Of a DNA stretch of 64,000 nt, positions 21,836-55,769 are shown in pieces (the first letter of the stretch is position 1; every line of letters starts with the position of its first letter). The stretch covers positions 64,976,001 to 65,040,000 of the forward strand of contig OZ024746.1 of assembly GCA_964016885.1 (NCBI GenBank). Reading direction: 5' to 3'. The translations under genes were made by a program, and so were the position numbers. Origin of the DNA: Eledone cirrhosa. Its lineage: Eukaryota. Under the pieces are notes generated by a model, which saw nothing but the letters and a program-made list of their open reading frames with translations, had not been told where the DNA came from and made no database searches.

Positions 21836-22509
21836 AATGTTTGTCAATGTCGTAATGCAGACAGCCAGATATACAGACAGATATTATAAGGGCTCGACGG
21901 AGATCGATAACCAGCGCCTAACACCCCTTTAACAACAGAAAATTGAAAAATAAAAGCTGCAGTTGATATCTTTAGACCGCAAGGAATATATAAATGCAAG
22001 CTTGAAGTCAAACGGAGTAGAAATGTGGATTTGTATAGACTTTGCAAAAATTAGGAGAGAGATGCATACCGCACAGGCACACACATAAACACATTCAATC
22101 ATATATATATATATATATATATATATATATATACACACACACACACGCACATAAATACATTCAGTCATATATATATATATAAATAATTATATACATACAT
22201 ATATACACACATATATATAGGTGTGTGTATTTTTAATAGAAAGAAAAGAAAAACACACCCAACACAGGCTGATAGAGCGGAGTTAAATGAAATTGTCATA
22301 TATATGTATATAACAAGCACACGCGCACGCACACACATAACAATTATATATATACATATATATATAACAATTATATATATACATATATATAACAATTATA
22401 TATATATATATATATATGACAATTATATATATATATATGACAATTATATATATATATGACAATTATATATATATATATATATGACAATTATATATATATA
22501 TATATATAA

Positions 22510-23078
22510 AATAAAATAAATATAAAAAAAATAATGAATAAAACAATGAAACAGTTCCTTATATTAAACAAAAAAAGTTCATTATTTAACGATCGTTTCT
22601 AGGATATATATGTGTTAGAATTGGCATGCATATTCAACAGATCTATGTACAAAATTATACAAAATTATACAAACTATCAAAATTAAATATACATACCAAC
22701 ACATATATAAGCCGTCTTCAGAAATAATAATATTATTTCTGAAGACGGCTTATATATGTGTTGGTATGTATATTTAATTTTGATAGTTTGTATAATTTTG
22801 TATAATTTTGTACATAGATCTGTTGAATATGCATGCCAATTCTAACACATATATATCCTAGAAACGATCGTTAAATAATGAACTTTTTTTGTTTAATATA
22901 AGGAACTGTTTCATTGTTTTATTCATTATTTTTTTAATATTTTATCTTGACTCTGTATTCCGTTTATCTTTCACCGAAAGTGATTTTTCATTGCATCTCT
23001 TCTTTCCATGATATCCGGATTACATTGAGTTCTTCATACGGATTGGACACTACCGTAAACTCTTGGTAGATTTATCTA
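22510..23078 (+). mobile_element. PLE pLTR fold-back insertion: ~215-bp palindrome centred on 22730 plus ~130-bp tail
   Basis: Near-perfect inverted arms with a 1-nt spacer; same family at 41297-41512. Confidence 0.85.
22732..22879 (+). ncRNA. Hammerhead with ~115-nt stem II (mirror at 22581-22728; further copy at 41297-41451)
   Basis: attattt-CTGAAGA-[tatatatgtgttgg...ctaacacatatata]-GAAA-cgatcg-TT-aaataat. Confidence 0.75.
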
Positions 23079-23317
23079 CATATATATATATATATATATA
23101 TATATGACAATTATATATATATACATATATATATATATATGACTATATATATATATATATATATATGACATATATATATATATATATATATATATGACAT
23201 ATATATATATATATATATGACATATATATATATATATATATGACATATATATATATATATATATGACATATATATATATATATATATATATATATATATA
23301 TGACAATTATATATATA

Positions 23318-25820
23318 CTATCAGAAGTACCCGGCGATGCCCGGGTGTAAATCGACCTTTGGTCTGTTAGAATGTGTGAAAGTTACTTCCCGCGCATCAC
23401 AGGTTCAAAACTTCGAACTTGAATGAAAAAAAATAGGTTAGTAGACACAGGTGTGTAATTTATTAATTGTAGTTACACAGTGTATCGTTGAAATTGTTCT
23501 CTGCACGACTGACGGAAGTCAAAGTCGCTTGATATTGAATGTTCAGTTAATTTAAAGCAGGGTGAAAATGTCGATTACTTTCAGCGTTTTTTTTTTTTTT
23601 TTACAATTTTTGCGCTCACATGTGCAGAAGAAGAATTAAAAGGGCCTTTATCTTAACCGCGGCATAATGGCGAGTCTTTTGTGACAGTTTTCAAGAATAT
23701 AGGACGTTCCTGTAAAAAGTTTTCCCATGTGTAACTTTGCCTTGTTTTTTTTTGCGCAAAGTCGAGCCCCGCTTCAGTTTTATTGATTTTTTTACATCAA
23801 TGCGTGATCTCTGAAGTAGATTTGAGTAGCTAAAAACGTGTCCCGGTAAATTTGCTATAGGTGAAAAAAAGTTGATCAAAATTGTATCTAGCCTCAAGCC
23901 TCGTCTGACGGGATGTTGGTGATTCCTCCGTCAGCGCTTGTTGGCGACGAATGCGAACATCAGCAAGCCTTGTCGTACGTGATGTTGGTGACTCAACCAG
24001 CCGGGAAAGACGTCTATCAGCGAGTCGATTGGCGCTCAGCAGGTGTTTCCTAGAGAAAATTAATTAATTCTACTGGTTAGCTAAGCCAATGGCAGTGTCA
24101 ATAGTAAATGAGAAAAGTCTAACATGAACAAAAGGGAATCAAGGTAAGACAATAAATTTAATATAACTACGATTAGAATGTTGTAGTTGCTTAAAAGTGG
24201 TGACAGTTAGGATAAACGCAGTACTTGCTAACATTAAGGGAGAATATTGCATAAAGGATTAATCAATTGTGAATGAACTCATACCTGAGAACGCCTAATT
24301 CGTTGTCTCAAAGCAGTAGCTGTACCTTTTTTTGAGGTAAGTCTTGAACGTTTCCGTGTGGGCATAACGACGTGTAACGAAGCTGTTAGGTTAGAGAGAG
24401 GTGATTAAATACAGAGAGAGATGACACCAGATTCGTTAGCATGGTTACTGGTGAATGGGAAGGTTTGGAAATATGATTGCAATAACTTACCGAATTTTCC
24501 GGTCTATAAATTGCACTTAAAATAATTAAATTTAATCAAAAAACAGCTCTGCGCTTTATACTCCGGTGAGCCTTATGTATAAATAATACAATGGTAATCA
24601 ATCACGGCTCTAACAGAAGTAATAGATCTAGACTAAAAGTAAAGAAGATAGCATTTTCCTGGTTGGCTTTACACGCCGTTGCGCGGACCTGATTTTAAAT
24701 GATACGTCTTATATCCTGGTAAGCCTTATAGAGCGGAAAATATCTATTGGAAAAGAATACGAATTCATGACCAAGGTGTGACAAAATAGGCGTCTATACA
24801 GCGCCTGAAACAAACTTGTCCAAAACCCTAAGATTTTTCTCGTTAAGTATCCACTCAAAAGGAACCGTTTTTTAGTTACAAAAAATAACCAAAGTGTATA
24901 GTAGCTATATTTCTGACATATCATGCCAAAAAGAACAATATATTCAAAAAATGTTCTAAAGTACATTCAATCTCTCTTTTTGACCGATATCTTAATAAGC
25001 AAGTTATCGATCTTTTATTGGCTGTCAGTGTCTATCTGCATTCAGGTGTGCACGTGTGCGCAATTAATTGCAAATACGCTCATGACATTTAGTCGTAAGC
25101 AGAACAAAAAATGCCATTAGAGGTGGGCTAATAATGAAGACACAAACCCCGGTGAACTTACGTTTAAACACCCGAAAAGTTACTCACTTCCTGTGCAAAG
25201 GACTGTATTATAAATTAAGTAATTTTTTAGAATCTTTTGTTTAAAAAAGGAAAACATTTGTACAGACGTAACATGTTTTACAACTTTGTATGTGTACAAT
25301 ACAACTTGGTCAACGTATTATTTAGTAATTTTTTTTTCAAAAAGCATGATTATTTAAGACTGTTTGAAAATTTATTCACAGCTTTTAGCATCACAAAAGA
25401 CACCATTAAATTTGGTTTCCTTTTCAGATAGGGATAATACTGTATTTCCACTTGAATAAGGTGGAATATGAAAAGATAAACTCTTTAATGGTTGGTCGTT
25501 TACTGAGACAGCTGGGAAGATATGCAGCTGGCCGTCCAATCAATAACGCAAATAACGCACGTCCTTATATGGGCATATGAAATTTATTTTTATTGCGCCA
25601 GATGTAAACTAAGAGTTCTTGTGTTCGAATTCACATAAAATTTCATTGGAATCGAAAAACATTCTGTCATAGGGCCCGATTATCGATTTTTCGAAAATTT
25701 CAAGTAGCCTATTCCACTCTACGCGTTGAGTTTTATATATGTGTGAGGTTTCATGAAAATTGGATGAACGGTGTAGCATGCAAGTTCAGAACACCAAACA
25801 ATGTCCATCTTCCCTTTATA
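23318..25820 (+). mobile_element. Putative non-autonomous Helitron/Helentron-like element (~2.5 kb)
   Basis: Starts actatcagaagtacccggcgatgcccggg; ends tttcatgaaaattggatgaacggtgtag...ccctttatatat; TA flanks; no ORF. Confidence 0.5.
24488..24746. mobile_element. Degenerate Tc1/mariner-pogo (Tc2-like) MITE nested in the above
   Basis: Ends taccgaattttccggtctataa / ttatagagcggaaaatatcta. Confidence 0.45.
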
Positions 25821-53935: not shown

Positions 53936-54639
53936 TACAAACGTTTATATATATAACAATTATATATATAACAATTATATATATATATATATATATATAT
54001 ATATATATATATATATAACAATTATATATATATATAACAATTATATATATATATATATATATATATATATAACAATTATATATATATATATATATAAATA
54101 ACAATTATATATATATATACATATTTATACCAATTATATGTGTGAAGAGCAAATTGAGAAAAATATTCCTAATTGTTTCTTCAATGTCGCGACTACAGTT
54201 TCTCCGATTGGTATACAGCCATATATATAAACATCCTATGGCCATAGAGAGATATCGACAGAAACAGGTGAAGAATGTCACTGGAAGTTCCCAGCTTAAA
54301 GTCTACATATGAGTGGGGGGAGATAGAAGGCCGTTTTGCGCAATATTTGTGAGTAATTGTGTAACTCCTATCCTTCTCTTACAAGAAAGCAGCCCTGTTT
54401 GGGATGGTATTGCTTTTCTGCTAGGGAGGAGACGACAAGAAAATGCAACCTAACAATTGTTTCCTCGCACCACTCACTGTCGTTAGGTGCCGGTGGTTGG
54501 GCATCCAAAATTGTACCAGAACACTAAAAGAATCAACATTAAAATGAATAAAACAAACAAACTATTCACTGGTTCTTGGAGTGTGCGAATTCTCCAATAC
54601 AGTAAGAACTTGAAAAGGCATATGAACTCGCTCCTCGGG

Positions 54640-54990
54640 ACCTGCTGTGAAAGGTTCTGCAGGAGTATGGGATCAATGGTCAGCTTCTTGCTGCCTTGAT
54701 GTCTCTCTAGGATTGCCCGAGTATTTGTGTTGGGAGAAATGGTGCTAAATCGAAAGTAAGCAATGTGTGAGTCGCTCTCCACCAAAGGTGCGTACTCTCA
54801 TCTCCCCTGTTCATTATTTTCATATACAGGATTCCTCTCCAGAAAGCCTGCGCAGTGCATACTATATGTGAATGGAATTCCACTGAAGTAGGCCGAGAAG
54901 TTCAAGTATCTCGGGTCCGTGATGGGAGGCAAGAGGCTGAATTAAGTGCAAGAATTGCAGGAGCTGGTGCAGTAATGCGCCAGCTTCAGT
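54640..54990 (+). mobile_element. Highly degraded LINE RT fragment
   Basis: Residual VNGIPLK*AEKFKYLGSV. Confidence 0.4.
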
Positions 54991-55769
54991 AAAAAACAAA
55001 AACAAAAAAAAAACAAATGAAAAAGGTATATATATATATATAATTGTTATATATATATATATATATATATATATATATATAACAATTCACTTGGTATCTG
55101 CCATATCATAGCTACAACTTTGATTTATACCTACTATATATATATATATATATATATATATATATATATACATACATATGTAAAATATATGTATATATTC
55201 ATAATGGACGTATGTAAAACCGTTCTCTGAATCCTTTACGATGCATATCCATAGCTTTCGATTTTCAAACCTTTTCCCCACGTAAATTCATGTATATTCA
55301 TCATACGATAGTCACTCAATTCAGCAACCATGCTTCTCTCTCTCTCTCTCTCTCTAGCTCTCACGCTCTCTCTCTCCCTCTATCCCTCTCTTTCATTCTT
55401 CCTCTGTTTACCTCCACACCCTGTTAAATAACTAGATTCTTCTCACTTCTTTGTTTGCTGGATTATTCATAAATGATGTATGTAAAACCGCTCTCTGAAT
55501 CTTTTACGATGCCATCCGTAGCTTTCGATTTTCAAACATTTTCTCCCACGAAAATTAATGTATACCCATAATACAATAGTCACAAATGCATGTATATTGA
55601 TCATATAATAGTCCCTCTATTTAATCACTTATCTCACCATTTTCCTCCCACCCCTACACACCACCTTAACCTAATTGACCAATCAAACCACAGCAACACA
55701 AATATATCTTCGCCAACTACCCGCGACAAGTGATGTAACTACTGCTATTATCTTTCCTATTTTTGGTTA

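What the first reader, a model, noticed from the sequence alone, without database searches (positions are those of the whole stretch)
22335..55086. Polarised (TA)n-ACAAT array whose unit matches the terminus of a resident Penelope-like element: possible telomerase-like reiterative synthesis
Seen: the intergenic region is filled with irregular TATAACAATTATA (locally TATGACAATTATA) units, mostly on the + strand. The PLE family at 42250/44548/49650 ends its arm in ...catgaccctcccaaagtataacaata (43445, 47097; similar at 51038 and inverted at 49650). Array units occur with graded 5' extensions of this end: aacaat; gtataacaat; aagtataacaat (31468, 34865); atgaccctccccaagtataac (30891-30911); and the full arm. 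In three copies the sequence just 3' of this family's HHR cleavage site is tgacaatatat, which resembles the variant unit. Known: PLE RTs are the sister group of telomerase RT, and PLEs favour microsatellites. Inference: the array may be built by repeated prime/copy/realign cycles on the PLE RNA end, with the element creating its own landing pad. The alternative is that the PLE end merely mimics a pre-existing satellite that it targets.
Basis: partly seen in the sequence, partly recalled or inferred. Interest (0 to 1): 0.8.

Follow-up and report, generated by a model that had tools for sequence, protein, structure and literature searches.

The report
Retroelement-seeded compound TA microsatellite
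This is a one-off stretch of TA repeats interrupted about 120 times by the same five letters, which likely came from the end of a mobile element and were likely multiplied by ordinary DNA copying slips, not by a telomerase-like enzyme.

Summary
The array is real: 118 plus-strand against 5 minus-strand units in 16 blocks, 22.3-55.1 kb. The telomerase reading fits badly. The Penelope-like element (PLE) has 26,822 junctions reading ACAA+(TA)n, but the array unit is ACAAT+(TA)n, one base out of register; 19 matches have that register. Paired realignment on the element RNA would give spacers of 1-2 TA; the array has 4-25 (0 of 61 at 3 or less). Variants cluster locally, blocks are duplicated, and 24 of 31 genomic unit pairs lie in this window. 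The 'terminus' is an internal stop point (codons 1-8 of the ORF), and half the copies run on into a 58-nt tail. TA-flanked PLE ends of 10-25 nt are common. About 1% of junctions carry a second unit, and small arrays copy the register of the junction beside them. A SINE end seeds such arrays too. Best reading: a retroelement junction seeded the unit, and DNA slippage grew the array. A rare one-round RT stutter remains possible: all 8 exact (TATAACAA)3 ladders lie at PLE ends, and one-TA repeats are confined to one subfamily (5 of 5, post hoc).

The parts
22335..23317 (+). Array blocks 1-2 (22335-22500, 23080-23317): ACAAT then TGACAAT and TGACA variants, split by a 425-bp palindromic insert
28775..29280 (+). 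Array block, almost pure TGACAAT variant with three TGTATGACAAT in a row
30486..31638 (+). Array block with ACAGT run, degenerate units and the AG(TA)2ACAAT unit at 31468
30866..30912 (+). About 45-nt 5'-truncated end of the sister PLE subfamily (B, ...CCCCAAG...), junction register, one mismatch
   Evidence: (L004)
32868..36358 (+). Core array blocks (32868-33095, 33474-35050, 35333-36358); 34830-35010 duplicates 31405-31640 and holds the second AG(TA)2ACAAT at 34865
38799..39021 (+). Array block
42251..43447 (+). Young 5'-truncated PLE copy (inverted 100-bp piece 42251-42350, then GIY-YIG region, pLTR, hammerhead-like core at 43242, ORF start at 43422), stopping at site 1 into the array's TA tract
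   Evidence: (99-100% matches elsewhere)
43444..44356 (+). Four small array blocks separated by other element fragments
44548..47153 (+). Broken 5'-truncated PLE copy: RT and GIY-YIG pieces, pLTR, core at 46909, ORF start at 47072, 58-nt tail ending at site 2
49299..49650 (+). Array block facing an inverted PLE arm
49650..51096 (.). PLE insertion with inverted arms: minus arm 49650-50561 ends at site 1, plus arm 50555-51096 ends at site 2 (tail)
51096..51593 (+). Array block with three inverted units at 51220-51290
53946..55086 (+). Last array blocks (53946-54129, 55027-55086)

Best explanation
The array is a compound (TA)n microsatellite, confined almost wholly to this locus, whose ACAAT interruption likely came from one retroelement end and was likely multiplied by DNA-level slippage and block duplication before further TA-targeting elements cut it into blocks. 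Step 1 (shown): this PLE family joins (TA)n at two internal points of its ORF start, both reading AATAT, and leaves many 5'-truncated copies, down to 10-25 nt. Step 2 (inferred): the nicked target end ...ATAT pairs with AUAU in the RNA and primes there. Step 3 (shown elsewhere in the genome, inferred here): the junction TATA-ACAA-(TA)n is an interrupted microsatellite, so misalignment on its own upstream TATA duplicates ACAA(TA)k with any k. Step 4 (inferred): at this locus the founding junction, likely a 10-12-nt PLE piece like the AG(TA)2ACAAT units, had taken a one-base indel, giving ACAAT. A SINE end, which is natively ACAAT+TAT, is the other possible seed. Step 5 (inferred from shown patterns): slippage and unequal exchange spread the unit and its point variants as local runs and duplicated blocks, which keeps one polarity by descent.
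For: Single locus: 24 of 31 unit pairs and 72 of 118 single units genome-wide are in this window; 0 of 29 other close PLE copies have units within 1.5 kb. Register: 26,822 even junctions against 19 odd matches, one of them a SINE end. Register is inherited locally: extra odd units lie beside 2 of 18 odd junctions and 0 of 102 even-junction loci (Fisher p=0.02), and even arrays of several units grow from even junctions (L289, L290, L295, L306). L295 mixes AG(TA)2ACAA with ACAA, the even-register twin of this window's mix. Spacers are 4-25 TA, mode 9, and 0 of 61 are 3 or less. Identical minor variants are adjacent 26 times against a shuffled mean of 4.0 and a maximum of 12 in 10,000 shuffles. 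Unrelated interruptions (AG, CT, GA, TC, CAA, AGAA) are amplified the same way in other TA tracts. A SINE end carries the same odd array (L060; L086). Micro-insertions: 1,056 raw matches (overlaps included) against 13 control; the 48 sites examined match the element end over 10-25 nt.
Against: The seed is not visible: no long odd-register PLE end or SINE end adjoins the array, and the AG(TA)2ACAAT units amount to one event that chance could give. 13 of 16 solitary odd units elsewhere have no identifiable seed, and 0 of 16 follow a same-strand PLE end. Copies with a duplicated unit are not more diverged than background copies (p=0.30 for subfamily A, 1.0 for B; 45-nt measure, low power), whereas slow DNA slippage predicts they should be older. 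One-TA repeats at TA junctions are 5 of 5 in subfamily B against 17 of 49 typed cases for longer spacers (p=0.008, post hoc), which host slippage does not predict. The array was not checked in reads, and no second individual or species was available.
Confidence: 0.65

Rival explanations
1. The unit arose by ordinary mutation inside a TA tract (or from an unrecognised flank) and was amplified by slippage. The likeness to the PLE end is coincidence.
For: ACAAT is not an outlier among 5-nt interruptions: 118 of 4,781 (TA)4-ANNNT-(TA)4 sites, and absent from the first 50 listed. The reversed control of the pair pattern gives 33 matches, so other such arrays exist. 13 of 16 solitary odd units have no seed, and the C23 array has none by BLAST against this PLE.
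Against: 3 of the 4 TA-type outside arrays found by the pair search start at a retroelement end (2 odd PLE junctions, 1 SINE). The window holds AG(TA)2ACAAT, the commonest micro-insertion size class (11-12 nt: 24 of 48 sites).
Confidence: 0.2
2. Each unit is a separate abortive PLE insertion of 4-5 nt: priming at site 1, then annealing of the new cDNA's TATA to the far side of the TA tract.
For: A real continuum of 10-25-nt insertions exists. (TA)4-ACAA-(TA)4 makes up 62 of the first 100 hits of its 4-nt class, against 28 AGAA, 9 ACAT and 1 AGAT.
Against: (TA)n is palindromic, so separate insertions would be in both orientations, but 118 against 5 is seen. They would also be in the even register about 99.9% of the time. 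Clustered variants need local copying.
Confidence: 0.05
3. The PLE RT built the array by telomerase-like cycles. This needs a read-through RNA from an odd-register junction, ending ACAAU(UA)n, so that realignment within the UA run gives variable spacers.
For: It would give the same product as DNA slippage at a junction. All 8 exact (TATAACAA)3 ladders in the genome lie at PLE ends. Spacer 2 is the commonest duplicate (17 of 62 perfect rows, chi-square against flat p=0.03). One-TA repeats are subfamily-specific. Telomerase-like template slippage at initiation is reported for the LINE UnaL2 (PMC1636434, passages).
Against: 57 of 62 duplicated junctions have a single extra unit. 4 of 17 spacer-2 cases lie inside tail-bearing copies, where priming did not occur. 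7 of the 8 ladders lack the G of AAGT, so they carry longer microhomology that favours any slippage. RNA-templated products should disperse across the genome, yet one locus holds most units. Runs of TG, ACAGT and ACAATCA variants are not templated by one RNA.
Confidence: 0.08
4. The array is an assembly or base-calling artefact of long TA tracts.
For: The region is very low in complexity, and read support was not examined.
Against: Consistent polarity, ordered variant runs and duplicated blocks over 33 kb, with no units in the 24 long TA tracts elsewhere in the window.
Confidence: 0.02

Closest known systems
Microsatellite birth from retrotransposon 3' ends (Alu/L1 tails; review PMC3812793, passages seen)
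   Same: A retroelement junction supplies the motif, and post-insertion polymerase slippage and point mutation grow a new repeat.
   Different: Here the seed is a 4-5-nt internal piece of a PLE ORF start set inside a pre-existing (TA)n target, giving a compound repeat with a variable TA spacer rather than a poly(A)-derived one.
EN+ PLEs of the Neptune/Nematis type and Naiads with microsatellite bias (PMC8557442, passages)
   Same: RT plus GIY-YIG, CX2-5CxxC linker, pLTR, inverted arms, optional tail, (TA)n targeting.
   Different: The tail is 58 nt rather than 30-40 nt. Copy number is in the tens of thousands, with many 10-25-nt insertions. The clade was not assigned by a tree.
Poseidon PAc of Anolis, two internal RT start sites (PMC11167929, abstract, main text, start of methods)
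   Same: Two stop points inside the ORF start bound the optional tail, and the target is AT-rich.
   Different: PAc starts at sites not homologous to the cut DNA. Here both sites read AATAT and overlap the (TA)n target in a fixed register, which suggests base-paired priming (inferred).
UnaL2 template slippage (PMC1636434, passages) and telomerase repeat addition
   Same: The rare one- and two-TA repeats at junctions resemble its product.
   Different: There are no long fixed-period ladders. The array's unit and spacer do not match the template register.
PLE-derived retrozyme minisatellites (bioRxiv 10.64898/2026.07.22.740005, two passages)
   Same: A PLE terminal sequence gives rise to a locally amplified tandem array.
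   Different: Those units are hundreds of bases long and keep the ribozyme. This unit is about 23 nt on average and keeps only five element-like letters.

Membership tests
EN+ Penelope-like element | Single ORF with RT and C-terminal GIY-YIG endonuclease | tested here: met
   Genomic copy L078 has a 1,174-aa open frame with YVDD and YIGET motifs. Window pieces hit RVT_1 (E 6.5e-4) and GIY-YIG (E 4e-4), both under Pfam's curated cut-offs. Best homolog is an Octopus vulgaris RT-domain protein at 67%.
EN+ Penelope-like element | pLTR overlapping the ORF start, partial tandems, inverted arms, optional tail | tested here: met
   The arm ends in MTLPKYNN. Copies stop at site 1, at site 2 (58 nt further), or read through into the ORF: 22, 25 and 2 in the sampled loci.
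EN+ Penelope-like element | Hammerhead ribozyme in the pLTR | tested here: inconclusive
   The core CTGAAGA...GAAA with stems I and II folds as expected. Rfam gave no hammerhead hit at E<=1. The cut site is placed from a recalled consensus.
Neptune/Nematis clade | CX2-5CxxC linker before GIY-YIG | tested here: met
   CIDKKCITC in P0001; feature as described in PMC8557442.
Neptune/Nematis clade | Placement in the clade by RT phylogeny | not tested
   No named reference sequences were fetched.
Telomerase-type repeat addition | Unit equals the templated segment in base-paired register | tested here: not met
   Paired realignment gives ACAA with 1-2 TA. The array has ACAAT with 4-25 TA, 0 of 61 at 3 or less.
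Telomerase-type repeat addition | Processive ladders at the primed end of new insertions | tested here: not met
   8 exact three-unit ladders against 26,822 junctions; 57 of 62 duplicates are single. A rare one-round stutter is not excluded.
Telomerase-type repeat addition | Repeat addition by the purified enzyme | not testable with these tools
   Needs an in vitro assay.
Compound microsatellite grown by slippage | Variable tract lengths, locally clustered variants, higher-order duplications | tested here: met
Compound microsatellite grown by slippage | Length polymorphism between individuals | not testable with these tools
   No relatives are held for this genome, and the run search gave no holder of half the words.

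The most novel reading that the evidence does not exclude
The PLE RT can realign on its own RNA like telomerase. It leaves a rare one- or two-round stutter at ordinary junctions (this weaker part alone has about 0.3 probability). On a read-through RNA ending ACAAU(UA)n it laid down the first run of this array, which then served as a landing pad for more copies.
Probability: 0.1. Interest if true: 0.75.

Novelty: new variant of a known kind. Interest (0 to 1): 0.3.

Why it matters
As a slippage-grown repeat with a retroelement seed, the array is a modest new example of microsatellite birth. The more useful result is the element itself. About 27,000 junctions in a fixed register, two start sites that both match the (TA)n target, and a ladder of 10-25-nt insertions give a large natural record of how a microsatellite-targeting PLE primes. 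A passage in PMC8557442 names microsatellite insertion bias as awaiting in vitro study, and the one enzyme tested in the paper read here (PAc) primes without homology. An intact genomic ORF exists, so the question of repeat addition by a telomerase sister RT can be tested directly with clear predicted products.

Tried and rejected
Third start site at the post-ribozyme TGACAA as the source of the TGACAAT variant: only 64 matches genome-wide, and 10 of the 15 viewed are internal TA expansions that continue into the element. All are in the even register, so this was rejected.

Rfam scan for the hammerhead: no hit. Folding around the two start sites showed no stable structure (z about +1).

Reversed-pattern controls are not independent, because the reversed unit is a rotation of the unit, and they were not used as evidence.

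Age test of duplicated junctions: no difference. The length column had an off-by-one error and was recomputed.

Sequencing-run search: no RNA holder listed and no holder above 0.31 of the words; the matches probably reflect plain TA words, and nothing was laid, so it is no evidence either way.

Earlier findings of the scan: none returned. Paper searches that returned nothing: (template slippage or telomerase-like reiteration with TPRT; PLE with abortive and microsatellite). The library lacks most subscription papers, so this does not show the idea is unpublished. No supplements were read.
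Full report
SETTING. The window is G000:C6:64976001-65040000 of a 3.0-Gb animal genome. 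The best named homolog of the element's protein is from Octopus vulgaris at 67%, so the host is likely an octopod. The window is rich in (TA)n and in nested mobile elements.

THE ARRAY. The motif AT[AG]ACAATTAT occurs 118 times on the plus strand and 5 times on the minus strand, all between 22.3 and 55.1 kb. It forms 16 blocks totalling 6,672 bp, separated by other elements. With TA runs collapsed, the unit is (TA)k-ACAAT-(TA)k. In the 61 perfect neighbour pairs k runs from 4 to 25 with mode 9, and none is 3 or less. Variants come in runs: TGACAAT at 22.4-23.3 and 28.8-29.2 kb, ACAGT at 30.5 kb, ACAATCA at 35.4 kb, CAACAAT at 51.4 kb. Identical minor variants are neighbours 26 times, against a shuffled mean of 4.0 and a maximum of 12 in 10,000 shuffles. 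Multi-unit blocks are duplicated, for example 31405-31640 and 34830-35010. The array is almost unique. A two-unit pattern has 31 genomic matches, 24 of them here. The single unit with four TA on each side has 118 matches, 72 here.

THE ELEMENT. It is an endonuclease-bearing PLE. A genomic copy has an open frame of 1,174 aa with RT, a CX4CxxC linker and GIY-YIG. The window copies are truncated or broken. The stretch called the terminus is the ORF start, MTLPKYNN. Copies stop there (site 1), or 58 nt further on (site 2), or read through: 22, 25 and 2 in the sampled loci. This matches the optional PLE tail, which lies between two RT start sites in the anole element PAc (PMC11167929). Both sites here read AATAT and join (TA)n in one register, ACAA+TATA. 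An exact end pattern has 35,845 matches, and site-1 junctions of two subfamilies number 26,822. The array's register, ACAAT+TATA, has 19 matches, one a SINE end. Base-paired priming on AUAU is my inference from the fixed register; PAc was reported to start without homology.

TEST OF THE TELOMERASE MODEL. The RNA has only two UA steps upstream of ACAA. Paired realignment would therefore give ACAA with one or two TA, in the even register. The array has the odd register and longer, variable spacers. None of 29 other close copies has units within 1.5 kb. A second ACAA within 14 nt of a junction occurs 299 times (control 30), about 1% of junctions. In the first 100 rows, 62 had perfect spacers, with counts 9, 17, 9, 4, 7, 6, 5, 5 for k=1 to 8; two of the k=1 rows are not PLE ends. 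The other 38 rows were imperfect and were set aside, and 199 rows were not seen. Of the 62, 57 have one extra unit, and 4 of the 17 with k=2 lie inside tail-bearing copies, away from any primed end. The exact ladder (TATAACAA)3 occurs 8 times.

All 8 ladders lie at PLE ends, though 7 lack the G of AAGT and so have longer microhomology. The k=2 class is in excess (p=0.03 against flat). The five k=1 repeats at TA junctions are all subfamily B, against 17 of 49 typed cases for longer spacers (p=0.008, post hoc). Duplicated copies are not more diverged than background. Graded 5' extensions exist genome-wide: TA-flanked element ends give 1,056 raw matches against 13 control, and the 48 distinct sites in the first 100 rows match the element over 10-25 nt, with peaks at 11-12 and 23 nt. 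These are dispersed single insertions in the even register. The even micro-unit makes up 62 of the first 100 hits of its class, and 5 of 12 such loci follow a PLE end, against 0 of 16 odd loci.

WHERE THE ODD UNIT COMES FROM. Register is inherited in cis. Extra odd units lie beside 2 of 18 odd PLE junctions (L119, L128) and 0 of 102 even-junction loci. Even arrays of several units follow even junctions (L289, L290, L295, L306). L128 and L295 contain AG(TA)2-units like those at 31468 and 34865. A SINE whose end reads ...GAAACAAT+TAT also carries odd units (L060, L086, L095); that it is a SINE is my reading from its form and from recall, not a tested assignment. Of the four TA-type outside arrays, two start at odd PLE junctions, one at the SINE end, and one has no seed found. 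Copying of the neighbouring junction's register, including a register the element's RNA does not have, is what DNA-level misalignment predicts. Unrelated interruptions are amplified the same way in many TA tracts of this genome. Against a retroelement seed: no long odd junction adjoins this array, 13 of 16 solitary odd units have no seed, and ACAAT is only 118 of 4,781 comparable 5-nt interruptions.

THE TGACAAT VARIANT. It is one transition from the main unit and sits in runs. Junctions at the post-ribozyme TGACAA are rare (64 matches; 10 of 15 viewed are internal expansions) and are in the even register. The resemblance is best read as chance.

VERDICT. A retroelement junction, more likely this PLE's than the SINE's, probably seeded the unit; slippage and block duplication grew the array; later TA-targeting insertions fragmented it (0.65). 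Chance origin plus slippage: 0.2. RT-built array: 0.08. Independent micro-insertions: 0.05. Artefact: 0.02. Microsatellite birth from retroelement ends is known (PMC3812793, passages), as are PLE-derived tandem arrays (bioRxiv 10.64898/2026.07.22.740005, passages) and telomerase-like slippage in a LINE (PMC1636434, passages). PMC8557442, PMC3846280 and PMC13282606 were seen as passages only. Three searches for PLE repeat addition or abortive insertion returned no paper. Interest 0.3.

Noticed in passing
window 3621-4062, 22518-22942, 33255-33474, 31640-32868, 61096-61237: Long near-perfect palindromes and fold-back inserts (99% for the first three). The one at 3621-4062 carries this PLE family's hammerhead-like core on both arms (3721, 3962). 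They may be self-primed PLE products or assembly fold-backs.
   Followed up: no
window 26697-28772 (-) and 51593-53370 (+): A second PLE family (RT and GIY-YIG; 691-aa open frame; the two copies 63% alike) inserted into array TA tracts.
   Followed up: partly
window 8538-9728, 29620-30348, 38064-38585, 48565-49297: GIY-YIG-region fragments of a third PLE-like group, also next to TA tracts.
   Followed up: no
genome-wide, (e.g. L149/L150, L151/L152, L157/L158): Insertions often come as an inverted pair in which one arm ends at site 1 and the other at site 2 (tail), as at window 49650-51096. This suggests the two strands are primed at different sites.
   Followed up: partly
L220, L225, L239, L347, L355, L358, L372: A long PLE end is followed in the same TA tract by a 10-25-nt copy of the same end in the same orientation. 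This could be re-targeting of its own tail, local duplication, or an abortive start followed by re-priming.
   Followed up: partly
L060, L086, L095, L126; window 15582-15681 and 55800-55969: An abundant SINE-like element whose 3' end (…AAAGTAGAAACAAT) resembles the PLE site-1 end (…AAAGTATAACAAT). Whether it borrows PLE enzymes was not tested.
   Followed up: no
L078:3-3524 (P0001): The PLE ORF has long Asn/His/Thr-rich repeats before the RT, like the N-rich inserts described in rotifer PLEs (PMC3846280, passages).
   Followed up: no
window 4209-7378 (-), 17792-19258 (+): Near-intact LINE-type ORFs (endonuclease and RT) by inspection of the translations.
   Followed up: no
window 59592-60308 (+): Host-like exon with a CBM_4_9 carbohydrate-binding domain (E 1e-8), possibly part of a glycoside hydrolase gene.
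   Followed up: partly
window 23317-23345; L149: A hairpin followed by CTAG next to a TA tract on the minus strand, resembling a Helitron 3' end (recalled feature, not tested).
   Followed up: no
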